A DNA stretch of 30,964 bases, taken from positions 152,008 through 182,971 of the forward strand of contig JBNGIO010006285.1 in assembly GCA_049999805.1 (NCBI GenBank), in the 5' to 3' direction. The notes beneath the pieces are model-generated. The model was given only the letters and a program-made list of their open reading frames with translations. It was not told the DNA's origin and made no database searches. This document shows positions 6,333 through 29,107 of the stretch, piece by piece. Position numbers and translations under genes: made by a program. Each line of letters begins with the position of its first letter. The stretch's first letter is position 1. This DNA comes from Folioceros fuciformis (taxonomy: Eukaryota).

Positions 6333-6917
6333 CCTTGGGTCCATATGGGCCTACAAAGGTACGATACGGAATGTGGAAGACCAATTCCTGGTGCTTGTAC
6401 AGCCAACCCAAAGCAGACAAGGGCGTCTACAGTATTGGAGTTGCCAAGATGGATTCATGTAGCTCCCCGCTGGTTCCTGTAGGTGAACTAACCAGACCAA
6501 AATCCAAATTCATGTTACAGAGTAACTGTTCCAATGGCCAATAACCTGTGCTCCCAAGTTCTGGAAGCGACCACAGCTGAGATGGTCCAGAGGTCCAGCG
6601 GTCCCACTTGGCAGGTACCCATTTCCAAACGCCTTCGCGGATTTTTCTGGTCCGGAACAGTTTCAGATGAACTGGATTGACTGGATGGAATGAGCTCCAG
6701 TGCCAAGTCTGATGAACATGTACAAATAGTGGACTTCTCGAGTCCCAGGACAGCAGAGTCTACCAGCCAGACAACCAACTCGCTCAGGCACCACATCAAT
6801 TCTCGGGACTACTTTTCAGGGCCTGTAAGCAAACTCCCTTGGCATCTGTGGTTTTCGTCGTCCTAGAAACATGAACTTCAAGTTTTTGCAAGCATTGATG
6901 GAGGGATGCATATTGCA
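6333..6917 (+). repeat. Orphan diverged duplicate of the promoter, 5'UTR exon and leader intron of the CHI-fold gene at 11976
   Basis: Collinear matches to about 11260-11939, e.g. ccaacccaaag, tccccgctggtt, ccagaggtccagc, tgactggatggaatg, gccaagtctgatgaaca, cgagtcccaggacag, gcctgtaagcaaactccc. Confidence 0.85.
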
Positions 6918-7470
6918 TGCCATAACATTAAGGCTCTCCCTCCAGGGACATGTGACATAACATTTTGCCATAACATTGTGCCATAACATTAAGCCTTCAT
7001 GTGAAATCTTGGTACCTCAAGGGCTGGAGAGGATAGATGAGCATTGGTAAAGCGAATATCAGATGTCGTACCCAACTCTTATGGTACTTATTAATCATGT
7101 GCAGCCCTTCCTCGTACATACATCATCAAGAAAACCAACATCATGTCAACAAGTTGTTGATTTGTGGTTGCATATAGATTGGGTAGAGATCTACGTTCAT
7201 TGATTGTGACCTCTAAGTATAGAGTTGGTGACTATGACCTCCAAATATAGAGTTGGTGACATCACAATTGTTAAGTATTCAAATCTCATTATTTCCATCT
7301 GATAAGTGATCCTACAAAGCTGTATTCTATATTTGTGGCCTTCCTTTTGCTCAATGGTAGATTGAAATATCTCAAGCCTTTAAGGAGTAGACCTTATTAT
7401 CTAACGTTGTTGATTCTATAGATAGGTCTTTCATCAAGTTTCCGATTTGCCTCCTAAGTGATACACTCCT

Positions 7471-7725
7471 GCAGCCTAAGGCTAAAAGCAATACAATATG
7501 CAACATTCTTGTAGCCTACCACTAAAAGCAATACAATATGCTACCTGCTGCCTATCACTAAAAGCAATCCAATATGCTACCTACAACTTATCACTGAAAG
7601 CAATGCAACATGCTACACTTCTACAGCCTATCACTAAAAGCAATTCAATATGCTACATGCAACCTATCACTAAAAGCAATACAATATACTACTTGTAGCC
7701 TATCAATAAAAGCAATACAACATGC
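7471..7725. repeat. Minisatellite, 7 units of 36-40 bp
   Basis: Consensus gcagcctatcactaaaagcaatacaatatgctacct. Units start at 7471, 7511, 7547, 7583, 7623, 7659 and 7695. Confidence 0.95.
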
Positions 7726-8092
7726 ATTGTATGATGCTTCAAGTTGTATATGACAATAGAAAGATGTTGCTCGACATGACATATGTGCAAACAACTAGGA
7801 GGTTCCAATGATGTTGGTATGTCAACATTCTCAAAATAGTATAATATGTGAAAGTTGGAAGGGGGCCAATGTACCACCCCTCTTCTATGGGTGGTAGATC
7901 CTCTTATCGGCGCATTTTGGACCTCCATGTCATTCTAGTCCTAACAACTTGGATGGCAAGACTATGCTGGTCAACAAGTGCACTTGGAAGCACAACACCA
8001 AGGACTACATTTACTAAGAAATACTATTGTTAAAATTCATCAAAATTCAATTCTCTAATGAATCCGACTACTTATTCCTCAGTTTCTACTTC

Positions 8093-10496: not shown

Positions 10497-10775
10497 TTCT
10501 TCAAATCAAATTTATGTCCAAGTCTTCCTAATCTTGATGGACAAGAGTACAAATTTGTCAACCATTCATCAAGTATCAGAAACAGTGCAAAACATACAAC
10601 ACAATATGCAAAGCATAAGATCAAAGAGAGAGCCATGATGTAGAAGAAAAAAATCAATTATACCAGGATCACATGAACGTAGCAAGAACTTTAAAAGAGT
10701 AGACTACAGTACATTAATAGAGCTAGGAGAGGCCCTTTATGTATGTTAGGAAGACTATCCAACATAGTACTAGAA

Positions 10776-10995
10776 TATAAACCTCTAACCTCTATAAGGC
10801 TATAAAATTTACCATAAATGCTAATGTGTGTAGTAACCGTTAACCTTAGAAACTACCTTATAAATCTCTAACCTCTATAAGGCTATAAAATTTACCATAA
10901 ATGTTAATGTGTATAATAACCATTAACCTTAGAAACTATCTTATAAACCTCTAACCTCTATAAGGCTATAAAATTTACTATAAATGCTAACGTGT
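10776..10995. repeat. Tandem repeat, 83-bp period, about 2.6 copies
   Basis: Units begin tataaa(c/t)ctctaacctctataaggctataaaattta at 10776, 10859 and 10942. Confidence 0.95.
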
Positions 10996-11975
10996 AAAGC
11001 AAATCCAAGGGTTTAAGCAAATCCATGGAAACTGGCTCAATTACTGGTATGTTAAGAACAACAATTTCTTCTTGGCTCATGATTTTAACCGAATCTATGG
11101 AGATTGACTCAAGGTTTTTAAGAGAACCTATGGAGGCTGAAATATCTATGTCAAGCTTTTGAGAGAATCCGTAATAATCCTTGCTATATATATATGTGGA
11201 TGATCTCATTCTCATTTGCTATGATTTGGAACTTATGTAGAGTACAAAAGAAGAGCCTTCTTTGTGCTCCGCATAAGAGCCTAAACGATGTCCTGGTAGG
11301 GTTGTAGACCCAACCCAAAGTTGGATATGAGTATGCAGCAGTGCTGCAGTAGCCAAGATAGTTCCAGGCAGGTCCCCGCTGGTTGCGTAGGTGACCCAAT
11401 TGTGCAGATCCATGCTCTAGAGTTCCACGGACCAATGAGGAGCTGCGCTGGGAAGTTCTGGAAGGGACAGCCGGTGAGATGGTGTTGGTCCAGTGGGCCA
11501 GAGGTCCAGCAGTACCAGCTCGGAAATGAGCAGGTGCTCATTTCCAGCAACTTCGCGGAGGCGTCCACCATTCACAGTGTCGGGAACTGTTGGTGGATGC
11601 GACTGTCGGGTTTGACTGGATGGAATGGGCTCAACGGCCAAGTCTGATGAACACATACAAATACTGGAATCTTGCGAGTCCCAGGACAGAAGTGTCTACA
11701 ACAACGTTCTCATCTCGTTGAATTTGAAGCCCAGTCTGTTCAGGCTCCAGGTTTCCTCTACCTTACTGATCCAAAAGTCTTGTGAAAGCTGCAGCCAGGC
11801 ACCCAACTCGCTCCGGCAACACATCAGTTCTCCAAGCCTGTAAGCAAACTCCCCGACATCTGCGTTAATTGTTGTAGTGCTATGTAGATGAACTTGGAGT
11901 TTTTTTGCAGGCTGCAATGATTGACGGATGTATGTTGCAGCTGATTAATATTCTGTGACTTTCCAGCAGAACGTG

Positions 11976-12951
11976 ATGGCTCAGATCGGGGACCTCCAGG
12001 CAACCATCACTGCCCCTGCCGGCTGCTCCAAGACTTTGCACCTGGCCGGCCACGGTACCAGTCCGGATTCTTTGACATTCCATCTGTGCATGTTGTGACC
12101 AATTCGAGACCCGAAGCCTCAGGCACTACTTGTGCAATTTGTGACATTCTGCCTGGTCATGCCTGCAGGAGTGGAGGAGAAGAACATCCAAGGAAGCCAG
12201 GTGAAAGTGGCCCGGTTGGCTGTGTACGTAGAGAAAGATGTCACTTCTCACCTGCGAGCCTGGAAAGGGAAGTCTGCTCATGATCTGGCACATGACAACG
12301 CCTTCTTCACCGCCTTGATCAAAGGTGCCATTTCCACAAGCTTGCATTGATTTCCGAGATGCAGGTGTGAGTGATAGTCTGCTGTTGCGATCTGTCTGGT
12401 TTAGGACTGACAGCCTCGAGTGACTACGTCATTCATGATTGTGCAGCGCCTGTGGAGAAGTTTGTCAAGGTTGAGTTGCTCGTGGGTCCAGTTCCTGGGC
12501 CTAACTACGGACTCCAAGTAGAGGTGTCCACCAAGGAGAGGCTCGTGAAGGAAGGCAAGTTGGGAGAGGTTGAGGAGAAGGCTCTTGTGGAGCTGCTGCA
12601 CTTCTTCAAGCCCATCACCCAACTGGGCCCCTCTGTGCTATACGCCTTCCCCTCGCCGTCCGTCGTCGTCCTCACGGTACTCACAGCATGCATGTCAACC
12701 AACCATCTATACAGCTGGTTGATGGTCACCAAGACCTTACACCATATCCTGTTCACACCTTACAACTAAACCGTGTAAGCTGGTGTGGCTCTTGGTGTTT
12801 TCAGGTGCAAGCAGATGGAGGCGAGGCGTCTCATGCAATCTCTAACGAGGCTATTGTGTTCGCTCTGCTGGACACTGTTTTTGGCGGGAATACGCTCAGT
12901 CCTTCCGCTACTGCTTCCACTGTCGAAGGCATTGCTGCTTGGCTGAACTAG
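11976..12951 (+). CDS. Chalcone-isomerase-fold protein (divergent, CHIL-related), copy A, 203 aa; exons 11976-12054, 12169-12324, 12447-12676, 12805-12951
   Basis: Segments TITAPAGCSKTLHLAGHG, VYVEKDVTSHLRAWKGKSAHDLAHDNAFFTALIKAPVEKFVKV, GPNYGLQVE...KERL and LSPSATASTVEGIA align with CHI/CHIL. It has the four-exon structure typical of plant CHI genes. Putative leader intron 11840-11966/11969. Confidence 0.88.
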
Positions 12952-13109
12952 CACCCCCAAGGCTTTGAGCCACGGCATTCAGCACAACATGCCCTCTTCC
13001 ACAATGCCCTCCAGCTACGGGCAAGCTCGTCCTCGAGCTACCATGTGTCGTTTGCAATAATAAAGTCTTGTTTTCAATGTGATCATCTCTTTCGATTCAC
13101 TCCCTCATC

Positions 13110-13375
13110 GCCACCTAGCCCATTCCCCATTCCCTCCTAGCACTGTTACGGTATGTGGATCACAGATCCTGCGGGAGCAGCTAGTCAGGCCCCCCTTTCC
13201 ATTCGGACACTTTGAGGCATGCCATGCAATTCTCAACGAGGCTATTGCATTGGCTCTGACGGATACAATTCCTGGTGGGAACACTCCAAGTGCCTCTACT
13301 ACTGTTTCCACTCTCCAAGAAATCTCTGCTTGGCTGACAGAATCACACAAAAAAGCCACATTTATCAGGTACTAA
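13110..13375 (+). pseudogene. 3' fragment of a third CHI-fold coding sequence (end of exon 3, intron remnant, exon 4)
   Basis: FPPSTVT|gtatgt, then EACHAILNEAIALALTDTIPGGNTPSASTTVSTLQEISAWL, versus copy A EASHAISNEAIVFALLDTVFGGNTLSPSATASTVEGIAAWL. Confidence 0.8.
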
Positions 13376-14689
13376 TGTTCAGGATGAAGCTTCCTTTCCT
13401 CTTTCGTTCTTCCTGCTTACCACGTTCTGTTTTCTCGGAGCATGGAGTTTGAACGCTACTTCCGGTTACCTTCCCCAGGCCATTCTACTCATCACTGTCA
13501 TTCTTCATAAAATATTGTTATTTAATTATTTTAAAAGACTTCAATGCGGATTGAATGTTGGTCCTATTTGGATCTAGTATGAATCAAATTAGTCAGGTTA
13601 GTATCTGCTGAGAGTAGATTACTTGAGTATCATTCTTGTTCATTCCTTGCAGTCTAAGTATGTAATTTTATCTCACAAAAAACTCAATTTTATATTTTAA
13701 TCACCTTAAGATTAAGGTAAACTTGTATCTTAGTAAGACAAATAAAATTAGATGTCTCACAGTTAGATATCACTTAAGAAACTTGTCTCCCTCTTAGTGG
13801 TTTTCAAACATGAGACAATGATATGGTCTACAGGTGAGGTGCATACTTATGATTACAAGGTACCTATCACGGACGGTGTGGTGTTTCGGGAGCAAGATCT
13901 TAGTGAAAGTATGTTAGCTTTGTTAAAATTAATATGTATAGATGGATGAAGTTGAGAAACTGGATGTTGTAAGCGGCGTAAAAGCGAGTGATTGTAGGAA
14001 AATGGGTTTACCGCGTACGTTTGGCGCTTATAAATTTGTGGGTGTCCCGGAGCCTGGGATTCTCGATGAGCTGAAGAGAAGAGGGTGTCCGGCCATGGTC
14101 GATCCGCGGGAAGGTGTCGGGGTTGCGTGTGTAGCTGGGACTTGTGAGAGCTAGAGGAGCGGGCGCACGGATTGGTGGGGTCTGTACGCGCTGAGTCTGG
14201 GGGAGCGTGTTGGGGGCGCTGTACAGGTTGTGGGGTGTGGCACAAGTTTGGTCCGCGCGCATCGGCTTGCGGGTTTGGGGGGCGTCGGGTGCTGGTTGCT
14301 GGGAGTGATGGTTGTGCAGCGGGTGAGTGAACTGGGTGGTGGTAGGGAGTCTTTGTTTTCTGTGCCTGAGGACGAGAGAGGAGTGAACTGCCCACCAGAA
14401 ATTCAGGCAGTTGTTGGGCGGGAGGAGCAATTGCTGGGAGGAGGTGGGTGGTGGGAGAGTGCGGAGCAGGATCTTGGTGTACCGTTCTGGAAGGGGACTT
14501 GTTCTTGGGTTCTGAGTTGAAGTGGGAAACTCAAGAAGATTAAGTTCGGGGGTGGGGATGGCTTGGGCTGGCTTTGGGGAGCTTGGCTTCACTGACTCGT
14601 TGTTTGAATGGGAATGATGGGCGTGCAGGTGGAGCAGCTTTGACCCGTGTTGGGTACTTGGCCATTTCGTTTCCTCGCAGTTTGGGAAC

Positions 14690-17600
14690 ATGAATGACGG
14701 GTCGGGAAATTCGCTGGTAGCGGGGCCTGAGGGGAGGAAGAAAAGGGTGGCTTACTTTTATGATCCCGAAGTGGGTAACTACTACTATGGGCAGGGGCAC
14801 CCCATGAAGCCTCATCGAATACGCATGGCTCATTCTCTGCTAGTTCACTACGGGGTGCATCAGAAGATGGAGGTTTTACGGCCCTACCCGGCTAAGGATC
14901 GGGATCTTTGTAGATTTCACGCTGACGACTATGTGTCATTCTTGAGAACAGTCACTCCTGAGACGCAGCACGAGCAGCTCAGGCAGCTCAAGCGATTCAA
15001 CGTGGGTGAGGACTGTCCTGTCTTCGATGGACTTTATTCCTTCTGTCAGATATATGCAGGGGGTTCTGTCGGGGGCGCAGTGAAACTCAACCACTTGCAT
15101 TCTGACATTGCCATCAACTGGGCTGGAGGTCTTCACCATGCCAAGAAGTGCGAAGCATCGGGTTTTTGTTACGTGAATGACATTGTGCTGGCCATTTTGG
15201 AGCTCTTGAAGTATCATCCTGTAAGTTGCGGTCCTGTGCTCCCCAGCTTCTGTTATGCGTTTCTTAGGGTTTTCGCTATGCGCTACTGTGCAAGAAGTTG
15301 TAGTCGCGTCTTCTCCCATGTTCCTTATTGTCTTTCAACATCTGTGCAGCGGGTTCTTTACATCGATATTGATATCCACCATGGGGACGGAGTGGAAGAA
15401 GCCTTCTACACAACGGATCGTGTCATGACTGTATCATTTCACAAATTCGGTGATTATTTCCCTGGCACAGGTGACCTCCGGGATGTGGGATATGGGAAGG
15501 GCAAATACTATTCCCTGAATGTTCCCCTCAATGATGGTATAGACGATGACAGCTACCAGTCTTTATTTAAACCTATTATCACCAAGGTAATGCAAGTATA
15601 TGACCCAGGGGCAGTAGTACTGCAATGCGGAGCAGACTCTCTTTCAGAAGACAGACTTGGTTGCTTCAACCTGTCAGTGAAGGGACATGCTGAATGTGTG
15701 AGGTTCATGCGCTCATTTGGTGTTCCCCTGTTACTGGTGGGAGGTGGAGGCTACACCATCAGAAATGTAGCTAGGTGCTGGTGCTATGAGGTGCGCTTTA
15801 CTTCCCCTCATTCACTCCTTGTGGCATGTCTGATGGTCTTGGTGGGTCCAGTATGCCTGCTGCAGTCATGTGTGAAGACGTCACTGCTTTTATCAGGCCT
15901 TGTAGAGAGTTACCTTGTTTCCTAGACACCAGCAGCTCTTTGACTGGGTTGTGCTGGACATTACACACTTTCCTGTCTTGTGTGAGGATGTTGGGATATC
16001 TATGGTAATTATCTCCGAGCGTGCTTTCTTGTTCTAGACTTGCAGACCGGGGTAGCTGTGGGAGTTGAGCTCGACGATAAGATGCCTTACAACGACTACT
16101 ATGAGTATTTTGGACCTGACTACACTCTTCATGTAGCTCCTAGTAACATGGAGAATCAAAATACGAGGGCATACCTTGACAGCGTCAGGTCGTTCTGGAT
16201 TAGAGCGCACAGTGTTGCTTGAAATGATACCAGTGGCTATGCTGTCATGTCTTAAATGCGATTTGTTGTCTACTGCAGAGAAAGGTTGCTTGAAAATTTG
16301 TCCAAGTTACAGCATGTACCAAGTGTTCCCTTTCATGACAGGCCTCCAGACACAGAATTCCCAGAAGAGGTGAAATCTGCAGGACTTGGGTTTTGGGATC
16401 TCGTCTACTAGGATTTGTATTTTGTACGTGACGTGAATTGTTCCGGTTCTCTTTTTCAACTCTTCTGGCTTGTGTAGGATGACGAAGACATGGATGCCCG
16501 AGGAAAAAGCCGTGCGTGGGATGGATCACTCTCAGATTCTGATGGGGAAGATGGTCCAGGACCCAGGCCTAGATACCGAGATAGCATGGCCAGTGACAAC
16601 TACGTTCCAAGGTCGTGCCGAAAGTATCTCGATTGGAAAGTTCCTTTTTTTGCTGAAGTACTTTGTGCTGGGAGACTAATTTGAGGTTGAGAGTCGGTTG
16701 TGATCTTTCAGGAGGCCGATGTTGGTTAACATTGAAAGAACACTGGCAAAAGTGAAAGAGGAGCAGGAGTCAACAGATGCCGCATCCATGGTTAGTCTTC
16801 TTGCTGGCACGTTACGTGCGCTTCTTCGTCTTCACAATCTTGAAACTAAGGCCTTATGTATGTTTGTGGGTTTTAGTGCGGGTCTCGTGATTCACGTATC
16901 GTTGTGAGTTCAGGATGAGGACAGTGAAGATGAGGACGTGCCGAAGTCCGCAATCCCTGACAAGGAAGTGAAAACGGAAGTGGGAGAGGTTAGTTCTTTG
17001 GGAGGGGAGGGGGGTCGTCCTATCAAAGGTATCTTTCCAGGTTTGCCTCTCACAACAGGAATGGTGGCTTGTGCACAGCCCATGGAACTGGACCCTGAGC
17101 AGGCAACTGCAAATGAGCATGTGGTAAAGCCGGCAGAGGAAAGGGGTGACTTGGAGATGCGGGACGCATCAGACGTGGAAGTGAGCTCAGTCACGGGCGC
17201 AATAGAACCATCACAACCAGTTGTTGTGTCAGCTCCAACGCCTACAGCAGGGAGTCATTTACCTCCTCCATTCAACTCCAAGCCACCGACTGGGCGTTCG
17301 GCTCCTGCCCAGGAAGTTGCCGATTCCAAGTCTGTTACTGCAGCCCAAGAAGGTGCTGGCGGCCCGGCTGTTTCAAGTGCAGAGACCTCGGGAGCCCCTG
17401 CAGTGTCTGGCCAACGGGCATCGGGCTCCCATGCAGGGGTTGTTTCCGGGGCCAGTACTGCTTGGCCGCAGCAGCCGGTGCTGCATGGAGCCAGGCCGTC
17501 CCATCTCTCAGGGGGCAGTAGCCTTGCTGCGGGAAAGGGAGCTGCAATTCTGGGCCCAGGCCCTCCCGGCCTTGGAGGCTCCCAGGCCGGGTTGTTGCCT

Positions 17601-17876
17601 CGGCCGACCATAGTACCCAACATGTTGGCTGTCCGACCAGGCGGGCCCCTGGGCAGTGTAGCCATGGGCAATACAACCATGATGTTTCCACAGCCGAGAC
17701 CCTCAACTCAAGCTCCCAGATTCTCCATTCCAGGCACGTCTGGCCCAGCTGTAACTGTTACATCATCGGCGGATACCTCCTCCGCCGGCCTTCTGGGACA
17801 CACACCTGCAGATGCAGCTGCCAACAACATGAACCACCAAACTCCTGCAGGTCAAGGTTCTTCCCGGATGCCCTAG
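14690..17876 (+). CDS. Class I RPD3-type histone deacetylase (HDA19/HDA6-like), about 763 aa; exons 14690-15220, 15350-15790, 16046-16188, 16279-16369, 16478-16611, 16712-16790, 16914-16988, 17079-17876
   Basis: Motifs [54 protein letters not shown] and [14 protein letters not shown]. Splice phases are consistent through to the stop at 17876. The 3' exons are less certain than the catalytic domain. Confidence 0.93.
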
Positions 17877-18348
17877 GTTCAAGATATTACATTATGTCTG
17901 TGCAGGATATATTTCTTTTCAATCAGTCCATCGATGAATCAAATTAGTCAAGTATAATTCCTAGCTAGAAAGGCTGAGACTCGAGTGTACAGCGATGAAT
18001 TTTGTCTTCATAGTCTGTAGACATCACTTGTCCAAGGCACCAGTCCCTAGCAGTCTGCCATACAAATTAGAACCAAGCAGGTTCCCTCTGCCTGGCAAAT
18101 GGCAGACTTGTGCGGAAGATAATCTTATTTGAAAGGTCAATCAGATTGCAATTTATATTACAAGTTGTCGATTGCACCGAAATGGGTGCAGAGGAGTCTC
18201 AACTGAATCAAAATCGGCAGCAGCCCTTGAGGAAAGCGCCTGAGTTACAAGGGAACTGTCTTAGGAAGACTTGAGTCCAGGGAGAGTGGGAGGCTCAAAT
18301 TGCCAAGCCACAGTGAGGTTGCTGCAACACTTCGACAACGAGCTGAGC

Positions 18349-19497
18349 TCAGATGATTGGAAAGACGAGCAAGAAGGGAGCCGCGCATGTGATGCACTTG
18401 TCAACTGACATAAGCTGAGGCCTGACCACTGACAGCGTTGCGGGGAGACTTGGACAGTCTGAAAATCCTGCTGAGAAAGTAAAGGAAGGATAGATTAGGC
18501 GGATAAGCGAATAAGAGATGAGAAGCGGAATCAGGAAGAAAATTATGGCAATAGCAACGGTGATGTTCCAGGCAGCAGGAGTATACATGGCGGAAGGGCT
18601 GCCGCAGGCGGGCACAGTCGCAGAGGGCGAAGTTGGAAGCATAGTGATGGAGTCATCGTCGGTGTCGCTGGACAGCATTGCAGGGCAGAGGCAGGAGGCC
18701 AGCGTGCCGTCCTCCGATATGATAGGTAGTTCCGGCTTCCAGGAGCCGCTGTAGGTGCGCAGAGAGCGCCGTCTTCTCCTGGCAAACTTGGCGGGACTTG
18801 CATTCGCAGGCCGATCCTGCCAGGACCTCATCACCGGCTTCAAACTGCCGCTTTGCACAACAGTATGCTTGGTGAGCAGCTCGTACACGAGGTGGTGTGC
18901 CGGGCCCGGTTTGGAGCCGGTATCGAAGGCCGTGCCTAACTCGGGCGAAATCTTGGTGGAGATCCTCCTGGCTATGGCCGACTTGAGGGCTCCGCCTTGG
19001 CTCCCGCCCTGATTGCTGGATCCGGGGCCCCGTCTAGATCTTTGCAAACCGGAAAGATCCTCCCCGGACGATCTCCTCAAAAGATTGGACAGCGAGTTTG
19101 ACCCGTAACTGTGGAGGTTGCTCGCCCCGGTTTCCTGATCCTGTTCCTGTTCCTGCCGCTGCTCTGGCAGGGGAAGCGGCAAGACGAAGTATAGATGCCC
19201 GCGCTGCAGCTTCGCATCCAGGGGGAGACTTGGTCCTCCTTGCACCGGAGACGCTGGTGCGAAGAGCGGATTGTCCGCCATCCGAGCTGGTGGAGGAGGC
19301 GGGAAGAGCGGGGAGTTCGTCCCAGGAGTGGATGCCTCGCAAACGTAGTAGCAATCACCGCTCTTCAATCGCCGTAGAAGCTCTCCAACTGTGGTGGCCT
19401 TTCTCATCGTTAACACCTGGCCATCAGCTCGCACCACTCGCGCCGGCCCGGCAGAGCTCCAGCATCCGAGGCACATGTACTTGGACACCTTCCCCAT
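18349..19497 (-). CDS. DUF4228/PADRE-domain protein
   Basis: MG...C N-terminus, ARVVRADGQV, TVGELL, LPLDAKLQRGHLYFVLP and SWKPELPIISE match DUF4228 hallmarks. The 3' end is uncertain. Confidence 0.8.
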   Translation of the reverse strand: MGKVSKYMCLGCWSSAGPARVVRADGQVLTMRKATTVGELLRRLKSGDCYYVCEASTPGTNSPLFPPPPPARMADNPLFAPASPVQGGPSLPLDAKLQRGHLYFVLPLPLPEQRQEQEQDQETGASNLHSYGSNSLSNLLRRSSGEDLSGLQRSRRGPGSSNQGGSQGGALKSAIARRISTKISPELGTAFDTGSKPGPAHHLVYELLTKHTVVQSGSLKPVMRSWQDRPANASPAKFARRRRRSLRTYSGSWKPELPIISEDGTLASCLCPAMLSSDTDDDSITMLPTSPSATVPACGSPSAMYTPAAWNITVAIAIIFFLIPLLISYSLIRLIYPSFTFSAGFSDCPSLPATLSVVRPQLMSVDKCITCAAPFLLVFPII

Positions 19498-21546
19498 CGC
19501 TAATTCCTGTTCCGAACAACGCCAGATTCCGATCAATTCTGATACAAGCCCTTCTCCGCTTCCTCAGCTGAATCCAAAAGCCTGGGACATTCTCGGAACC
19601 AAAATCCCTGCCATCACTCGGGGACTTCCTCACAACGCTCGCTTGCCGAGAGAGGCGAATTCCTTCAACGAGTCAACCCGACCGCGCATCGTTTCCAGCA
19701 CATCGATGTCGACTTCCATGCACGCGCGACAAGCTTCTTGTGGTCTAGCACTGAACACCGAGCGTGAAGGAGAGCCGCAAATCGAGTCGTGAGACGCTCA
19801 ATGCACCGGCAGTAGCGGCAAGCAGGGAGGACCGAGGCGCAAGTTCGCGAAGAGCTCAGGAATATAAGGCGTGGAAGCAGAGAAAGGAGAAGGCAAAAGG
19901 CGGCTGCAGGAGAAATCTGGCGAAACTGGAAGACGGTCAGCGTGTGTGAGGTTGCGCGCCTGTCCTTGCGGACAGAATGCGGACGGCGCGGCCAAATCCC
20001 GTCCGAGGCCGCCACTTGGAGTCCGCACAGCTCCCGTCGCTTTATCTTTTATTAAACGCTGCCTTGTGGCTTTGCACTTCTGTGGGAAACGTGCCTACCG
20101 CTTCTAATGAAAGCGGCAACGTTGAACGCTGTACAGAGAACGAAACGCAACACGACTCACAGAACACGTCTCATGAATTACGAATCACGGCGGCAGCCGG
20201 GCCGCGCACCGGCCGTGAATGCTGCCAAGGAAGGCATGTAGGTTTTATCGCGCTCATTAGAGGACCGACATGACTACACTCAAAGTATATGTGCAGGGAG
20301 GAGCGATCTGGTGGAGCCGCTCGTCAGAGTTTGAGCGGCAAGGCAGCTCGCTTTTTGGAGGTTTTCACAGGAAGCAAGCCAGGGCGACAGGCGGCAGCCA
20401 GTGGACAGCGCGGAGGTAGCCAGGGCAGCGGCCAGCGGCCAGCGGTGATCGTGATGATCGCTCATCACAGAGCGGGGCCAAAGCTGCTGACACCGCCATA
20501 GCCGTGACTGGTTGCTACCTCCATTACAGCCGCCTGACGGCCGTGGTCCTGACTCCTCCCTGCCTTGCATGCAGTTGAAACCGACACAACGCTGTCACTC
20601 CCCTCATCCATCACTTGAGCTGGAATAACGTCTTCTTGCTTGCAGCATGAACTACTACACAGCGTAGAGTCTGACGAAAGATGTTGTCAAGCCCCAGTTT
20701 GTATGTACATACGTCCATACTGTACCTCGAAATCACATCCAGTAGGAAATGTTGGCGAGCGTGTGTGATTGGGTTGAGGTCAGATTATATGTTCTGTGAA
20801 GAGGGATGGGCCCAGGTATGTCCGTGCTTCCACTTCTTCCACACAGCTTCAAAGACTGGCGTTACAGTACACTCTCTGCTTGCCTTGTGGTGAAGGTGAT
20901 GATCAAGTGTGGTTGATGAGACTAGGGTTCCGGTCTGTCCAGAATGCGAGTACAGGTACAGTGCGTACGCGATGCGTTTGCCTGCTCACAATCATGCCCG
21001 TGGCCTGACAGGCGGGCGTTTATGCGTCTGCCTGTGCTGGAGTAGTAATGGCGCCTGCAACTGAATCACGGGGTGGAGATATAGTCTGCGGATTGCTGGC
21101 CGGTCCAGTAATTGCTGTGGAAGCGGGTAACCCCAACCACGCGTCATCAATCACACCCCGCTCTCAGAACTTGTCACGTTGCAGTTACTCTGCTGTATCT
21201 TGGGGTATGATTTTCTTCACCGACTCCAGATCAATTTCATAAAGAATGCAGAATAGAGAAATCGGCGATGCATTATTGGCGGCAACAGATCCTGAATAAC
21301 TTTCTACCACGAGAACTTGTGAGTCGGAGGAGTAGATTTTGTTCATAATTCCAACTCCTGCTTGCGAGTCACGAAATGAGAAGAGTAGCTTCGTACGATG
21401 GCCCGTAGGATCCCTGCTTAGCTGCAGGCAGTGGAGGCGAGGGAATTCAAAACTTCGCGGGGTTGTACATCAGGACACATCACATGATACTGCGCTGCGC
21501 TGCGAATTCTAGCCTTCGCAGGGTATGGAAGAGAGTCTGGTGCACC

Positions 21547-22164
21547 TCAGTCCTCTTCCAAATTGATCGAGTCTTTGAACTTCCCATACAGTATCCTCTT
21601 CAGCTCTGCCATCTTGGCAAGCACCGCATCTTTCTCCTCTTCCACACGAGCCAGGTCCTTTGTTGTTTCCTCCTTCAGTTGTTCCAGCCTGTTCTCCACT
21701 TCATCCCTCGACAAATGACTGAAAACCTCACCAATTTGGTACCGCACCACTTCGTCATCAGACAGAATCAGCTCGTTGCCTGCGTCTTCCAGATTCTCAG
21801 CCGTATCCTTTTACACATGACAAGAGAATCAAGTCAACAAGGCAATTGGCATCGGCATCACGAGCACGGGCCAGGACAGCGCACGACTGACCGTGCTCTA
21901 GCATAACCTAATTCCCAAAAGCAGTCTCACCTTCTTGATCTTGATCTCATCTTCCAGCTCGTGGAACTTGCTGTTGAGCCTTCCGAAAGTGTTGATGTTC
22001 AGTTGGTCCTCCCAAGTTACCTCGGTCTCTACTCCATCTCCCTGTAAGAACCACAGCACACTTGCTTAACGCTCCAAGATGATGAACCTATCTGAAGGAT
22101 GAGATGCCGTCAGTGTCATAGCAGGGTGGTCCGTCTGCGAGCAAAAACAGCCAACCTGCTGCAT
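21547..22164 (-). CDS. PFD4: Prefoldin subunit 4, 126 aa; exons 22164-22156, 22041-21931, 21807-21547
   Basis: [26 protein letters not shown]...[12 protein letters not shown]...YQIGEVF...[18 protein letters not shown]. Confidence 0.95.
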
Positions 22165-23055
22165 TTTGGAGGTATCCTGACCTCGATCTCAACAGCTTCT
22201 GTGAATCAACAGTTGTGACCTAGACCTGTGGCAGGGAGACGGGAGTGCTCAGTTTAGGGCTTCCAAGTTTCAACCCTCAGAACGTCAAGGTGCCCTCATC
22301 TAAGCGTAAGGGGACTGGCGTTATGGATAGAAAGTTATCACAGTGACATAAGTTTCCCGCTTGTCTTATTGCGGTGGTGTGCAGTGACATTGTTTGGGCG
22401 GAAGGAAAGTGCTCGGAACAACCGGAGGACAAGGAGTGCGGGGAAAGTGGCATACCTTTTAATTTGGATCAGAGCCGATTTCATCCCAGCTCGGTATCGT
22501 GGCCAGGACTAGACCGTCTGTATCGGTGGCCACTGGAAGCGAGTCTCCAAAGCACAGATTAGACAAGCTAGGTTGTTTCGTTTTGCGAGCAGCGAGGCAT
22601 CAAGTTCTGGAAGTTTCCATTTTAGGGGAATTTGGCATTGGCAAGTGAGCAACCGGACCCTGTCGACAAGAAGGATTTCCTCGCAACTTCGTTGCAAGTT
22701 TGCTGGAGTCAGCGGAAAGATGTTCGCACTGAGCAGTCGCTGGTTGTCTGCCAGAGCGGAGCTGACTGGACGGAGTAAGCTCAACGGCCACGTCCGCTCT
22801 AATGAATATATACGGGGCGTCTCGATCCCATGACACGCAACCACCTTCAGCATCTGCGATAAGCAACTCGACCACTTCAGGCTCCCGGATCCAGGCGTCT
22901 ACATCCCTCCGACTCCTTCTCCGTTTTCGGTTTTCAACGCCACTCCAAGACCAGTACGTAGCTCCGAAATGTGCCGGTTTCTGGGCTTTGAACATTGAAT
23001 GTTGGCGGGCAATTTGACAACATTGTGGCATTGCTTGGTTTCCCAACAGGACGTC

Positions 23056-24043
23056 ATGGCTCAGATCGGGGAACTCCAAGCAACCATCACTGCGCCTGCC
23101 GGCTGCTCCAAGACCCTCCACCTAGCTGGCCACGGTATTATGAGCTTCCTCAACGTTCTTTCACTGCTGAGTATCGACTGATCTGGAAACCGAAGGTTTA
23201 GAAACAATTTGCAATTTCGAACTCTAAGCACAAACATTTTTCTTGACAACCTGTTTGACCGAGGTGCTTGCAGGTGTGGAAGAGAAGTGCATCGAAGGAA
23301 ACCAGGTGAAAGTGGCTCAGCTGGGTGTGTACTTAGAAAAGGATGTCACTTCCCACCTCGAAGCCTGGAAAGGGAAGTCCGCTCATGATCTGGCACAAGA
23401 CAATGCCTTCTTCACGGCTTTAATCAAAGGTGCTCTAGAATGGATCACCCTCCTAGAATCTTCCATCGAGTGCCAAAGTTGAAATTTCATGTAGGTCTCA
23501 GACTCACCCTGTCTGATCACATCATTCTGCAGCACCTGTGGAGAAGTTCGTAAAGGTTGGGTTGCTCGTGGGCCCAGTCCCGGGACCTCATTACGGAAGC
23601 CAAGTGGAGGCCTCCATCAAGGAAAGGCTCCTCAAGGAAGGCAAGTTGGGCAACGCAGAAGAGAAGGTGCTGCAGGAGCTGATCCAGTTCTTCCAGCCCA
23701 TCTCTCAACTGGGCTCTGCTGTACTCTACGCCTTCCCCTCGCCGTCCCGTCTCAACCTCACGGTACTCACAGTGCAGTCCCCCAGTCCAGTTGGTCACAC
23801 ATCATTGCACCGCATCTGGTGTTCATCCAGCATTGTTACATGTATATGCACCTGTGAGTAAACTGTCTATGCTGTTGTTTCTGTTCACAATTTCAGGTGC
23901 AAGCAGATGGCGTGAAAGCATCTCATGCAATCTCCAGCGAGGCTATTGTCTTCGCTCTGTTGGACACCATCTTTGGTGGGAATACGCTCAGTCCCTCTGC
24001 TACCGCTTCCACTGTTGAAGGCCTCGCTGCTTGGCTCAATTAG
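23056..24043 (+). CDS. Chalcone-isomerase-fold protein, copy B, 203 aa; exons 23056-23134, 23274-23429, 23533-23762, 23897-24043
   Basis: Same exon lengths as copy A (79/156/230/147 nt), highly similar protein and diverged introns. Putative leader intron 22954-23049. Confidence 0.88.
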
Positions 24044-25962: not shown

Positions 25963-26611
25963 AGATGTGAATCTATGTGCACATCAAAACTCGTGTACCG
26001 TACAGAAGATGAGTAGTTTCTTCAACGTATCTCTTGCCTGCGTTTTGAAGGTGGTGTGCCACGAGCAGGTGCTCGTTTTTTTCCCCGGCTGGGTTGATGA
26101 GGCGTATTCAGCACCTAGGCATTCCGTTTTGTTTACCAGACAGCTCACCGATGCAAAAGAGAGTATTGTATTGGGCAAATGAGAGCTACCTCGATGGCCG
26201 GAACGACAGTTCTGAAGCGGAATGGAGATTCTCATGTGCATCGGAGATTTCGGGTGGCCAGGCACTGTGTGAATTGTTAGAATACCAAGAGATCTCTCCT
26301 GTAAGGGTATTCTGTAATCACCAACTCTACCTACGGGATGAATATACTTGGGCACCTGCAGATCATGTTACTACGCTAGAGGGAATATACGTGATACCTG
26401 AAGCACCCTGCCAAAGGTATCCACAAGCTGTCCAGTTGCGTGTGTTAGCAGCAATATAGACCTTGCACGTACCTGACCCTTACCGTCATGTGTAGTAGGT
26501 AGGTTATGACAAGATGTGTAGGTTGTGAAACAGCATGTGCCTGAATGTGTAAGATGGATTAGCTCCAAATCGCGGTTGTCGTGTTCCCAATGACGTCTAA
26601 CAGTATGCATT

Positions 26612-26723
26612 CTGTGGCGGATGTGTCACGGCCCTCGTGTCACAAGTTGTGAATGAGGGCGCTATATTCGTGCTGTGGCGGGTGTGTCACGGCCCTCATG
26701 TCACAAGTTGTGAATGAGGGCGC
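26612..26723. repeat. Two direct copies of a 51-bp unit (61-bp period), each containing a 30-bp palindrome
   Basis: ctgtggcgg(a/g)tgtgtcacggccctc(g/a)tgtcacaagttgtgaatgagggcgc at 26612 and 26673. Confidence 0.9.
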
Positions 26724-26806
26724 CCGGGCCCACTCCTCTACTTCGAGCATGGTGATGCCGTACATCAGCCCGGGGCCACAGCCACTAGTGTAGCCACGCC
26801 CCTGAC

Positions 26807-26985
26807 GCATGTACCAACCTGTCCATGTTGCCCATGAAGCATGTACCAACCTGNNNNNNNNNNAGCATGTACCAACCTGTCCATGTTGCCCATGAAGCAT
26901 GTACCAACCTATCCATGTTGCCCATGAAGCATGTACCAACCTGTCCATGTTACCCTAAGCATGTACCAACCTGTCCATGTTACCC
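26807..26985. repeat. 32-bp tandem repeat spanning a 10-N assembly gap (26854-26863)
   Basis: Unit gcatgtaccaacctgtccatgttgcccatgaa starts at 26807, 26839, 26865, 26897, 26929 and 26959. Confidence 0.95.
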
Positions 26986-27831
26986 AACCAGCAACAATTG
27001 CTTATTTGGGTAAGAACAATTGCTTATTCTCTGGCCTTCTCTCTTCCTTGGAAAAGTAATGAGGTCATTTGTCCAATTTCTCTACTTCCTTATCCTCGCT
27101 ACGGGCCTCTCCTCCCTCTTCCTCAACTCTACCTATTTGGCTTCCTCCATAGCAACTCTATCTTCTTCACGAATGCCTTGAATGAAGGCTTTCACATTAC
27201 CCCCACTATCCACCACATCCCATAAACTCTGCAACGTCTCCATACTTCGAATTGCCCCAAATGCTATTTCATTCACTGTAGGGTACCATCTGTATTTGTC
27301 CTTGAACCATGTTTAATGCAATCCATTCATCTTGTTCTCCTTTGCCCCAAGGATTCGGGCCTCTTCCACTTGCTTTCGTCAACCTAGCTTATACTTCTTT
27401 GATAAGCATTGCCCAACAACGTGGCCCGATCTGAAAGCATTTCAGATGTAGCATCCGCCTTTGCCGCCATGTCCTCTGGTGTTCACACACCTTTCAAGTC
27501 TGCATCTGTTCGCTAGGCCTAAATATCGGTTCGCCAAGGTACGGCCTAGCGAACCGACATGCCATGCCATGAGCATGGCCTTCCTCTCCCCTACTCCTCT
27601 CTCTCTTATCCGTGCCAACCCGTGATCGAGCTACCGGGAGTGACAGGAAACTAATTCAAGTTCTCGTCGCCCTGATTGTCATGGCAATTCTTGCGACGAC
27701 ATTGCTCGCCCTTCGTTTATTTCAGTTGAGAACGAGAGCGGAGAGAGCGCTCTGCTCAAAGCACGGCACACGGTAAGAGTTGAAAGATCGAAGGCTGGGG
27801 AGGATGCACGTATACTGATCGTGCTCCAACA

Positions 27832-29107
27832 ATGGATGAGGTTGCAATGCATTGTCCTTTTGCAGTTCAGAGGCCTGGTGGAGGGAAAAAAAATTTCAAT
27901 GACTTGGAATGGCTGCAATCCTCATACAAGCATCCATCTTGTCCTGGCCAAGAGCTAGCTTACATCCCTTGGACCAGAGTGCACGATTTCATAGAGGGCA
28001 TGAACTCATTGCCACATGCTCCTACAAATTATTATAAGGCATCTCGTAGAGGGCCGGCCAGCAATACTTCAGCAGTAAGTTGTTTGAAGCTAGATGCAGC
28101 CATTGTCACAATACGGTATGTATGAACCCTAAGGATTCAATCCGTTTACTTTCTACTTGTTGGTATCATTGAAAGATTTCATCATCAGTGTTTTGCTTGC
28201 AGTTATTGGTGTGGATATGGGCCACAGGACTTGCGGAATGTTCCCATGCCTCCACCACATGTACCTATTATTGTGGAGGGTGAGAAGAAGCGTAGACGGT
28301 CTCGGATTGCTAACGGTGAAAGCATCAAACACGGTTGTCAAGCTTCGTTTGCCATTGCACAGTTATGAAGATGGCCAGTTATTGCTCAAGTAACATTATA
28401 GGAAACTATGCACGTGGATGTTTCTGGAAGAGTGTGTCATGGCCTAGAGTACGTAGGCATGCCAAGAGATGTCAGGGTTCCTCACTTGAGTGCTGACAAG
28501 AAGGCATGGGTGAAACATGGTTTACTATGTAATGTTTCTATGTCAGAGATTCTTAGACGATACCAGGAGTAGGTGTGGGCGAAATGTTGTGGGCTTTCAA
28601 CAAGCTGGGAGCATGAGTCACAATATGTTCAGGTTAGAGATGATTTCTTGACACGTGCAGACATTGACAATCTTGTCGTTGACTTGCAAGGTACAATGTG
28701 GAAACATCATCAGGATGACACTATTAGTGTGGGTATATGGATGCGGCTCAATGCTGCATTTGTGTTTCACAAGTCCACTGCTGATTAGTCGTTTTGTTTG
28801 GGGATTCAGACCCCGCTCATGCTTCAGACCTGTTTGACACATGGAAGGAATAATGTGCTCAAGATTGACTCCATGTTTGGTGTAAACCAGTACAAGTACC
28901 AGCTCTTCACAATTATGGCTTTTGACCTTCACATGAATGGTATTCCGGTAGCGTGGGTTTTGGCAAAAGACGGTACAAGTGACACCATAGCCAGGTGGTT
29001 GACATCTTTTCACGAGGTTTTGTTAAGTAGGGATGCAACTTGGTTGCCCTCCGCAATATTGGTTGATGATTGTGCAGCTGAGATTGCTGCAATTCGAAAG
29101 GTTTTTT
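27832..29107 (+). mobile_element. Decayed MULE-type (Mutator-like) transposase of the At4g13970/At1g60560-like SWIM family; intron 28116-28202; four in-frame stops; cut by a LINE
   Basis: Segments LAYIPWTRVHDFIEG, RYWCGYGPQD, HGCQASF, HVDVSGRVCHG, RDDFLT, FCLGIQT, IDSMFGVNQYKYQL, GIPVAWV and ILVDDCAAEIAAIRKVF are collinear with that family as recalled. Stops lie at 28366, 28399, 28570 and 28786. Confidence 0.85.

What the first reader, a model, noticed from the sequence alone, without database searches (positions are those of the whole stretch)
11976..24043. Locally expanded, divergent CHI-fold subfamily that is neither catalytic CHI nor canonical CHIL
Two intact 203-aa paralogues lie 11 kb apart, with remnants at 6.3-6.9 kb and 13.1-13.4 kb. 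By manual alignment to Medicago CHI, Arg36>Glu, Phe47>Val, Thr48>Ala and Asn113>Ser, with Tyr106 kept. The CHIL motif (TDIEIHFLQIKFTAIG) is replaced by EEKNIQGSQVKVARLA / EEKCIEGNQVKVAQLG, although the CHIL-like YGxQxE...ERL is present. Exons are conserved while introns have diverged, suggesting purifying selection. Inference: a new ligand-binding or polyketide-synthase-partner function. This would be especially notable if the host is a hornwort, a group reported to lack flavonoids.
Basis: partly seen in the sequence, partly recalled or inferred. Interest (0 to 1): 0.7.

Follow-up and report, generated by a model that had tools for sequence, protein, structure and literature searches.

The report
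Divergent non-catalytic chalcone-isomerase-fold gene pair
A plant genome carries two expressed, well-kept copies of a small chalcone-isomerase-fold protein that lacks the residues needed to be the flavonoid enzyme and also those its known helper relative uses to dock on chalcone synthase, so it probably binds some other small molecule or partner.

Summary
Two intact genes on the + strand (11976-12951 and 23056-24043) each have four coding exons and encode 203 aa. They are 84% identical, with dN/dS about 0.2. Contigs of an RNA-like public run are spliced exactly at all predicted introns. Two dead fragments lie nearby: an exon-4 copy at 13214-13339 and a copy of the non-coding 5' leader at 6386-6917.

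The proteins belong to the CHI/CHIL part of the chalcone-isomerase fold, not to the fatty-acid-binding type.

They also lack most CHIL hallmarks:
- 1 of 14 CHIL-wide derived states is shared.
- 28 of 62 CHIL-conserved positions are kept.
- The hydrophobic hairpin tip is replaced by a CHI-type Gly turn.
- 1 of 6 published CHS-contact residues of interface 2 is kept.

They carry several CHI-type states (Gly40, Pro98, Val108, Gly120, Thr188 in ancCC numbering).

Phylogeny cannot place them. A divergent sister of moss CHILs, a de-activated CHI and a third branch all survive AU tests.

The function is inferred, not shown. The host is a streptophyte, and a hornwort origin was not established. I rate this a new variant of a known kind, of moderate interest.

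The parts
11500..11839 (+). Copy 1 non-coding leader exon. The 3' end at 11839 is fixed by a spliced joint. The 5' end lies at or upstream of 11500, the edge of the stretch laid.
   Evidence: joint 11839>11967 (GT..AG), and X3 depth in bin 11500-11933.
11840..11966 (+). Copy 1 5'-UTR intron (127 nt). It ends 9 nt before the ATG.
   Evidence: joint; and 68 sequence.
11976..12054 (+). Copy 1 coding exon 1 (Met1 to the first base of codon 27).
12169..12324 (+). Copy 1 coding exon 2. It holds the beta-hairpin with Glu at the Arg36 site and Ala at the Thr48 site.
   Evidence: (PF02431, 31.2 bits).
12447..12676 (+). Copy 1 coding exon 3. It holds Tyr106, Val at the L108V site and Ser at the Asn113 site.
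12805..12951 (+). Copy 1 coding exon 4 with stop. It holds Thr at the Thr190 site.
13214..13339 (+). Dead exon-4-like fragment, 263 nt downstream of copy 1's stop.
   Evidence: 62% over 42 aa, E 9e-11; family D3.
6386..6917 (+). Remnant homologous to copy 1's non-coding leader exon and UTR intron. No coding exon follows it.
   Evidence: 67-70% identity to 11291-11940; families D10-D12; (no credible protein match).
22954..23049 (+). Copy 2 5'-UTR intron (96 nt). It ends 6 nt before the ATG.
   Evidence: joint.
23056..23134 (+). Copy 2 coding exon 1.
23274..23429 (+). Copy 2 coding exon 2.
   Evidence: (PF02431, 34.8 bits).
23533..23762 (+). Copy 2 coding exon 3.
23897..24043 (+). Copy 2 coding exon 4 with stop.

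Best explanation
The two genes encode a non-catalytic chalcone-isomerase-fold protein of the land-plant CHI/CHIL superclade (types I/II/IV, not the fatty-acid-binding type III).

Shown: both copies are intact, spliced, transcribed and under purifying selection. The catalytic Arg36 is Glu and Thr48 is Ala. The hairpin that canonical CHIL pushes into chalcone synthase is replaced by a CHI-type Gln/Glu-Gly turn. The bulky Trp/Tyr pair that fills the CHIL pocket is replaced by Thr and Val/Ile.

Inferred: the protein keeps an open, CHI-sized pocket whose chemistry is altered. Glu-Glu-Lys stands where CHI has Arg-Gly-Leu, and the Arg/Gln next to the lost Thr is new. It therefore works as a binder, carrier or sensor of a small hydrophobic or phenolic ligand other than the chalcone-to-flavanone transition state, and not as an isomerase or a canonical chalcone-synthase rectifier.

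Its lineage is unresolved. My odds are: very divergent CHIL orthologue about 45%, de-activated CHI about 35%, third branch from the CHI/CHIL ancestor about 15%.
For: - Fold and family: exons 2, 3 and 4 hit Pfam PF02431 colinearly at profile positions 30-77, 79-148 and 166-198.
- PDB ranking: all three exons rank the reconstructed CHI/CHIL ancestors first, then CHILs, then real CHIs. A FAP (4dol) appears only for exon 2, at 20.7 bits.
- Transcription and splicing.
- Selection: dN/dS 0.17-0.20.
- Lost catalytic residues. Kaltenbach et al. (preprint 10.1101/174128, passages read) report that R34, T46 and Y104 are the critical residues, with 100-1000-fold loss of kcat on mutation.
- Not CHIL-like: 1 of 14 CHIL-derived states shared and 28 of 62 CHIL-conserved positions kept.
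- CHS contacts of AtCHIL (PMC13136490, passages read). ITF1 residues I33, I35, H36, F37, L38, V40, F42 read K, I, Q/E, G, S/N, V, V here. ITF2 residues K94, K97, Q100, Q104, N107, Y138 read V, P, N/H, Q, V/A, T/S here. I mapped these by eye from the alignment.
- Open pocket: position 188 is Thr. It is Trp in seed-plant CHILs and Leu in P. patens CHILs (PMC10276294 passages).
- CHI-type states at G40, P98, V108 (the 'founder' L108V), G120 and T188.
Against: - No structure could be predicted, because the spliced protein cannot be handed to the folding tool. The pocket shape is therefore inferred from alignment only.
- No ligand, partner or activity was tested.
- Moss CHILs, which do act on their CHS, also differ from AtCHIL at several interface-2 residues. 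Interface loss is thus weaker evidence than it looks.
- Overall similarity is highest to moss-type CHILs: 42-43% identity and 140-148 bits to the Sphagnum protein P0025, against 26-33% and 68-94 bits to real CHIs.
- An intron sits 6-9 nt before the ATG. This is close to the ATG-interrupting intron that PMC9670752 (passage) calls typical of CHIL. Both points fit an ordinary if fast-evolving CHIL.
Confidence: 0.45

Rival explanations
1. It is the host lineage's true CHIL orthologue. It still docks on a type III polyketide synthase through a co-evolved interface and improves that enzyme's rate or product fidelity. The sequence is simply very diverged.
For: - All 12 of the 13 significant library hits to exon 3 that I read are CHIL-type. 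P0004 is named P. patens CHIL2, and P0008 was not read.
- The best real full-length match is a Sphagnum CHIL.
- A position as sister of moss CHILs is not rejected: p-AU 0.34, 0.46 and 0.50.
- There is an intron next to the ATG (PMC9670752 passage).
- Reviews state that CHIL occurs in all land-plant lineages, including flavonoid-less hornworts (PMC7010833 and PMC13240065 passages).
- Gln104 of interface 2 is kept.
Against: - Only 1 of 14 CHIL-wide derived states is shared.
- The hairpin tip is Gly. In AtCHIL, F37A abolishes binding, and bryophyte CHILs have Thr there.
- 5 of 6 interface-2 residues are changed.
- The ATG itself is not interrupted by the intron.
- The ML tree puts it on the CHI side of ancCC, though weakly, with support 81.6/57.
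Confidence: 0.3
2. It is still an enzyme. It uses other residues, for example Lys at site 38 or the Glu pair, for isomerisation or another reaction on a phenolic or polyketide substrate.
For: - Tyr106, Thr190, Val at the founder L108V site, and CHI-type Gly40, Pro98 and Gly120 are kept.
- The pocket is likely open.
- Selection is strong.
Against: - Arg36 and Thr48 are both lost. Their mutation costs 100-1000-fold in kcat in CHI (preprint 10.1101/174128 passage).
- No precedent came up in the papers read here.
Confidence: 0.1
3. The genes are relics on the way to decay, transcribed but without a selected function.
For: - Two dead fragments lie nearby.
- Catalytic residues are lost.
Against: - Both reading frames are intact after dS of about 0.5.
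- dN/dS is 0.17-0.20, and 61 of 100 differences fall at third codon positions.
- All splice sites are kept and used.
Confidence: 0.05

Closest known systems
Moss chalcone isomerase-like proteins (type IV CHI-fold): P0025 (Sphagnum compactum record) and P0004 (P. patens CHIL2). PpCHIL-A is solved as 8DLD according to PMC10276294.
   Same: - The CHI fold, a length of about 200-218 aa and loss of the catalytic Arg.
- Ser at the Asn113 site.
- The best real sequence match: 42-43% identity to P0025.
- The positions of the two later CDS introns are seen in CHIL-type exon fragments.
   Different: - Glu, not Thr, stands at the Arg36 site, and Ala, not Thr, at the Thr48 site.
- The hairpin tip is Q/E-G-S/N, not E-T-V/I.
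- The acidic EEEEE stretch is reduced.
- Position 188 is Thr, not Leu.
- Only 1 of 14 CHIL-wide derived states is shared.
Reconstructed CHI/CHIL ancestor ancCC (PDB 5WKR; Kaltenbach et al., preprint 10.1101/174128).
   Same: - The highest PDB scores for every exon are to this ancestor and its engineered derivatives.
- 43-44% identity.
- Inactive as an isomerase.
- Ser111 and Tyr104 are shared.
   Different: - ancCC keeps Arg34 and Thr46; the window proteins do not.
- The window proteins already carry Val108, Gly40, Pro98, Gly120 and Thr188, which lie on the path to active CHI.
- ancCC was inferred without any hornwort sequence (passage).
Catalytic chalcone isomerase, for example Medicago CHI (1EYQ).
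   Same: - The fold, Tyr106, Thr190 and Val110.
- A Gly-tipped hairpin: copy 2 reads IEGN, as the Medicago-type sequence does.
- Intron positions are shared at or within about one codon.
   Different: - Arg36>Glu, Thr48>Ala, Asn113>Ser.
- Only 26-33% identity.
- 9-11 of the 39 ancCHI*-type states, against 19-21 in four real CHI domains.

Membership tests
Catalytic CHI (types I/II) | CHI fold / Pfam PF02431 | tested here: met
   exons 2-4 match the profile colinearly. Exon 2 scores 31.2 and 34.8 bits, above the 27-bit cut-off, even alone.
Catalytic CHI (types I/II) | Catalytic Arg36 (Medicago numbering) | tested here: not met
   Glu in both copies.
Catalytic CHI (types I/II) | Thr48 hydrogen bond to the substrate carbonyl | tested here: not met
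   Ala in both copies.
Catalytic CHI (types I/II) | Tyr106 | tested here: met
   Tyr in both copies.
Catalytic CHI (types I/II) | Asn113 and Thr/Ser190 (less critical) | tested here: inconclusive
   Ser at site 113, the ancCC state, and Thr at site 190, the CHI state.
Catalytic CHI (types I/II) | Isomerase activity on chalcones | not testable with these tools
   Needs an assay of the recombinant protein.
CHIL (type IV) | Hydrophobic beta-hairpin tip that enters the CHS pocket entrance (AtCHIL I35-H36-F37-L38; E-T at sites 36/37 in bryophytes) | tested here: not met
   I-Q-G-S in copy 1 and I-E-G-N in copy 2. Interface definition from PMC13136490.
CHIL (type IV) | Interface-2 residues K94, K97, Q100, Q104, N107, Y138 (AtCHIL) | tested here: not met
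   Only Q104 is kept, 1 of 6 (mapped by eye). P. patens CHIL2 in the same alignment also differs at several of these positions, so the feature is not universal.
CHIL (type IV) | CHIL-wide derived and conserved positions | tested here: not met
   1 of 14 derived states shared. 28 of 62 positions conserved in >=90% of 35 CHILs are kept.
CHIL (type IV) | Membership of the CHIL clade in a phylogeny | tested here: inconclusive
   AU p-values were 0.34-0.50 for sister of moss CHILs, 0.39-0.74 for the CHI side and 0.13-0.53 for outside both. No FAP outgroup and no liverwort, lycophyte or hornwort sequences were available.
CHIL (type IV) | Intron interrupting the start ATG (PMC9670752, authors' unpublished analysis) | tested here: inconclusive
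   An intron ends 9 nt (copy 1) and 6 nt (copy 2) upstream of the ATG. The ATG itself is not split.
CHIL (type IV) | Binds CHS and rectifies its product profile | not testable with these tools
   The spliced protein cannot be handed to the complex predictor, and no host CHS sequence is at hand.
FAP (type III) | Conserved Arg that holds the fatty-acid carboxylate; closest similarity to FAPs | tested here: not met
   The Arg is Glu. FAP3 (4dol) scores 20.7 bits on exon 2 and is absent from the lists for exons 3 and 4.

The most novel reading that the evidence does not exclude
These genes represent a so far undescribed extant branch at the CHI/CHIL split. They are either a third lineage or a chalcone isomerase that lost Arg36 and Thr48 and was re-used. 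They are kept, duplicated and expressed for a ligand or partner outside flavonoid synthesis.

If the host proves to be a flavonoid-less hornwort, three things would follow:
- They would show what the CHI/CHIL scaffold does once the pathway is gone.
- They would change the inferred ancestor, since ancCC was reconstructed without hornwort data.
- They would explain why early searches found no CHI or CHIL in hornwort transcriptomes.
Probability: 0.3. Interest if true: 0.7.

Novelty: new variant of a known kind. Interest (0 to 1): 0.5.

Why it matters
CHI is the textbook case of an enzyme that arose from a non-catalytic binding protein, and CHIL is the helper that keeps chalcone synthase on target.

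A selectively maintained, expressed relative combines three things:
- a CHI-like open pocket;
- loss of the catalytic Arg and Thr;
- absence of the CHIL docking features.

Such a protein would be a natural experiment on what else this scaffold can do. It would also be a missing data point for reconstructing the CHI/CHIL ancestor.

If it turns out to be only a fast-evolving CHIL, the value is smaller. It would be a lineage-specific variant whose partner interface has been rewritten.

Tried and rejected
**Close relatives**
- Exon 3 of copy 1 against proteins of 134-2000 aa found none at E <= 0.01 among 88 candidates.
- Exon 3 of copy 2 against 1.84 billion representatives gave 13 hits at E <= 1e-3, none at <= 1e-10, the best at 42-43% identity.
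- Six 8-residue patterns scanned in metagenome contigs matched 470 stretches, none confirmed.

**Whole genome**
- None is held. I could not ask whether a canonical CHIL, a CHS or further copies exist.

**RNA evidence**
- No RNA holder is listed on record. X3 is only guessed to be RNA, though its contigs are spliced.
- Run X8 laid nothing and X7 one short piece. Depths were not used to rank genes.

**Earlier findings of this scan**
- Nothing relevant turned up.

**Profile search for named CHI and FAP references**
- Of 589 hits, the 120 listed were all CHIL-type or engineered ancestors.
- Real CHIs were fetched instead with a degenerate motif scan. All 16 loci found encode CHI-like sequence.
- No FAP outgroup could be obtained.

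**Trees**
- The first constrained-tree run, on the 41 sequences left after removing the two reconstructed ancestors from the 43, hit the time limit. It was repeated with 24-25 sequences.
- LG+C20+G4 was applied to fixed topologies only.

**ESM Atlas**
- Exon 3 alone gave first hits of 0.83-0.85 to unrelated bacterial families, which is chance level.

**Papers**
- Schafran et al. 2025 is not held, and supplements are closed. I could not see which hornwort sequences the reviews call CHIL.

**Structure and complex prediction**
- Not attempted. The spliced protein is not a contiguous translation of the window.

**Coding remnant at 6.3-6.9 kb**
- Rejected (tblastn E 6.9).

**Metabolic gene cluster**
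- Rejected. The neighbours are isochorismatase-like, arginine decarboxylase, GH17+X8, histone deacetylase, PADRE, prefoldin, a ribosomal L10-like gene (Pfam PF00466; 'MRT4-like' in the full report is my own reading) and transposon fragments. There is no polyketide synthase.

Full report
**What is in the sequence**

The window is eukaryotic and gene-dense, with short GT..AG introns. On the + strand there are two genes with the same structure.
- Copy 1 has coding exons 11976-12054, 12169-12324, 12447-12676 and 12805-12951.
- Copy 2 has coding exons 23056-23134, 23274-23429, 23533-23762 and 23897-24043.
- Each gives 612 nt and 203 codons without an internal stop.
- All six introns are GT..AG, with phases 1, 1, 0 in both copies.
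- The proteins match at 170 of 203 residues and the CDS at 512 of 612 nt.
- The exons are 80-90% identical (71/79, 133/156, 183/230, 125/147 nt).
- Global alignments of the introns give only 82/146, 72/128 and 89/154 matching columns. The 200-nt flanks give 126/241 and 120/234.
- dN/dS is 0.17-0.20 by four methods, with dS 0.49-0.58. Of the 100 nucleotide differences, 61 fall at third codon positions.

The duplication is therefore old, and both copies have been kept by selection.

**Transcription**

One public run (X3) is recorded only as a guess at RNA. Its contigs nevertheless skip exactly the three predicted CDS introns of copy 1 (114, 122 and 128 nt) and of copy 2 (139, 103 and 134 nt). 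They skip one more intron in each 5' UTR: 11840-11966, ending 9 nt before the ATG, and 22954-23049, ending 6 nt before it. The DNA run X1 shows none of these joints. This is one run from one study. I do not use its depths to rank genes.

**Remnants**

An exon-4-like piece lies at 13214-13339, with 62% identity over 42 aa and E 9e-11.

The 6.3-6.9 kb 'remnant' is real but not coding. Positions 6386-6917 match copy 1's leader exon and UTR intron (11291-11940) at 67-70%. The proteins themselves find nothing credible there (E 6.9).

The locus thus holds two live genes and two dead fragments. The genes between and around them are unrelated:
- isochorismatase-like
- arginine decarboxylase
- GH17+X8 glucanase
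- histone deacetylase
- a PADRE-domain gene
- prefoldin
- an MRT4-like gene
- MULE and zf-RVT transposon pieces

No polyketide synthase is nearby. The PADRE and GH17+X8 genes, and Atlas clusters whose commonest phylum is Streptophyta, indicate a plant host. The organism name is coded, and I could not test the hornwort idea.

**Family**

Exons 2, 3 and 4 match Pfam PF02431 (chalcone-flavanone isomerase) colinearly.

Against solved structures, every exon ranks the reconstructed CHI/CHIL ancestors (ancCC and its engineered derivatives) first, then CHILs, then real CHIs. A fatty-acid-binding type (4dol) appears only for exon 2, at 20.7 bits.

HMMER with exon 3 of copy 2 against 1.84 billion representatives found only 13 proteins at E <= 1e-3, the best at 42-43% identity.
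- The 12 I read are all CHIL-type. P0008 was not read.
- P0004 is named P. patens CHIL2.

No close relative turned up in the protein collection or in metagenome contigs. The proteins belong to the CHI/CHIL superclade and have no near relative in the collections I could search.

**Residues**

I fetched real catalytic CHIs with a degenerate motif scan. All 16 loci found encode CHI-like sequence.

One of them, L007, has a first exon that matches residues 1-87 of Medicago CHI 1EYP/1EYQ at 174.6 bits. This gives the crystal numbering directly.

Kaltenbach et al. (preprint 10.1101/174128, passages read) name Arg, Thr and Tyr as the critical trio, so canonical isomerase chemistry is very unlikely.

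The proteins fit CHIL no better.
- Of 14 states that moss-type and tracheophyte CHILs share against ancCC, they have 1.
- Of 62 positions conserved in at least 90% of 35 CHILs, both copies keep 28, about as few as real CHIs keep (26).

The AtCHIL-CHS crystal paper (PMC13136490, passages read) defines two interfaces.
- Interface 1 is the hairpin I33, I35, H36, F37, L38, V40, F42, with E-T at sites 36/37 in bryophytes. The window proteins read K, I, Q/E, G, S/N, V, V. This is the CHI-type Gly turn, and copy 2 reads IEGN like the Medicago-type sequence.
- Interface 2 is K94, K97, Q100, Q104, N107, Y138. The window proteins read V, P, N/H, Q, V/A, T/S. I mapped these by eye.
- P. patens CHIL2 also differs from AtCHIL at several interface-2 sites, so this part is weaker evidence.

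The Trp that occludes the CHIL pocket is Leu in P. patens (PMC10276294, passages) and Thr here.

Of the 39 positions that separate ancCC from ancCHI*:
- the window proteins have the CHI state at 9-11 and the ancCC state at 11-13;
- the 35 CHILs have the CHI state at 4-7 and the ancCC state at 17-25;
- four real CHI domains have the CHI state at 19-21 and the ancCC state at 2-4.

The CHI states not seen in the five CHILs printed beside them are Gly40, Pro98, Val108 (the 'founder' L108V), Gly120 and Thr188.

**Phylogeny**

The first tree had 43 sequences and 211 columns:
- the 2 window proteins;
- 4 CHI domains from 3 loci;
- ancCC and ancCHI*;
- 11 moss-type CHILs (3 named, 8 unnamed);
- 2 unnamed CHILs;
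- 22 of the seed-plant CHILs listed, picked by eye for spread.

In it the pair sits on a long stem (1.06 substitutions per site) at the CHI/CHIL split. It falls on the CHI side of ancCC, but with support of only 81.6/57.

| Test | Position of the window pair | p-AU |
|---|---|---|
| 24 sequences, no ancestors | with CHI | 0.74 |
| | with moss CHILs | 0.34 |
| | with tracheophyte CHILs | 0.15 |
| 25 sequences, ancCC as root proxy | CHI side | 0.64 |
| | with all CHILs / sister of moss CHILs (the two constrained searches reached the same tree) | 0.46 |
| | outside both | 0.13 |
| LG+C20+G4 on fixed trees, all within 0.53 lnL units | all four trees | 0.39-0.53 |

Nothing is rejected. Several things were missing:
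- a FAP outgroup;
- liverwort, lycophyte and fern sequences;
- any hornwort sequence.

Raw similarity favours moss-type CHILs (42-43% to the Sphagnum protein against 26-33% to real CHIs). Real CHIs, however, sit on a long branch of their own.

All three CDS intron positions are shared, at or within about one codon, with CHI genes. The two later ones are also seen in CHIL-type exon fragments. They do not discriminate.

The intron just before the ATG recalls the ATG-interrupting intron said to typify CHIL genes (PMC9670752, passage). Here, though, the ATG is not split.

**Reading**

Shown:
- two intact, spliced, transcribed and selected genes;
- membership of the CHI/CHIL superclade;
- loss of Arg36 and Thr48;
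- absence of most CHIL-specific states.

Inferred:
- the pocket is open and CHI-sized, because the residues at sites 108 and 188-189 are small;
- its chemistry is changed, with Glu-Glu-Lys in place of Arg-Gly-Leu;
- the protein therefore works as a small-molecule binder or sensor rather than as an isomerase or a canonical chalcone-synthase rectifier (confidence 0.45).

The main rival is that it is the lineage's CHIL with a rewritten, co-evolved interface (0.3). Residual or new catalysis (0.1) and decay (0.05) are less likely.

On lineage, my odds are about 45% divergent CHIL, 35% de-activated CHI and 15% third branch.

**Relation to what is known**

Reviews state that hornworts lack flavonoids yet keep CHIL. 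They also state that CHI is absent from mosses and from all but one hornwort species examined (PMC7010833 and PMC13240065, passages).

Kaltenbach et al. found no CHI or CHIL in the three hornwort transcriptomes then available, and inferred ancCC without them.

A survey of 259 species lists only Bryopsida and Marchantiopsida among its bryophytes and names no Anthoceros (PMC11985768, passages).

I could not see the primary hornwort sequences. Schafran et al. 2025 is not held and supplements are closed. I therefore cannot say whether proteins of this type are what those papers call hornwort CHIL.

Whatever the host, this is a new variant of a known kind: a CHI-fold protein with an unusual mix of CHI-type and ancestral states and neither set of functional hallmarks. 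Interest is moderate. It would rise if the host is a flavonoid-less lineage and the branch proves distinct.

Noticed in passing
L013:482-1795 (- strand); the same gene is in L001: A single 437-aa open frame in a metagenome contig holds two complete catalytic-type CHI domains in tandem, each with the Arg and Thr motifs. Both halves are closest to solved catalytic CHIs (6ms8, 8v8p, 4doi). I had not met a CHI-CHI fusion before.
   Followed up: partly
window 24039: One X3 contig follows copy 2's last exon up to 24039, 4 nt before the stop codon. It then continues for 255 letters unlike the window (table 7). It may be a further paralogue elsewhere in the genome or another transcript form.
   Followed up: no
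window 11500-11839 and 6386-6917: Copy 1 has a leader exon of at least 340 nt. A diverged copy of that leader, without any coding exon, lies 4.9 kb upstream. Copy 2's leader shares only a 32-nt match with it (11613-11644 against 22763-22794, 84%).
   Followed up: partly
window 12069-12120 region of the proteins (residues 32-47): 6 of the 33 amino-acid differences between the copies fall in the 16-residue hairpin/pocket stretch: N32C, Q34E, S36N, R42Q, A44G, V47L. This includes Arg versus Gln next to the lost Thr48. It might reflect diverging ligand preference. No statistical test was run.
   Followed up: no
window 7468-7727, 10769-11017, 26604-27005: Tandem repeats of 36-40 nt (5 copies), 83 nt (3 copies), 61 nt (2 copies) and about 30-58 nt (5 copies). 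An 8-base run of N lies at 26856-26863.
   Followed up: no
window 28789-29124 (+) and 29449-30963 (-): Transposon fragments: a MULE / ZSWIM RNaseH-like domain and a zf-RVT domain of a non-LTR element.
   Followed up: no
L007, L006, L014 and L003-L005, L008-L010, L012, L015, L016: Metagenome contigs that are plainly plant genomic DNA with tandem CHI gene arrays. L007 and L014 carry a first exon that matches Medicago CHI 1EYP over residues 1-87 at 174.6 bits.
   Followed up: partly
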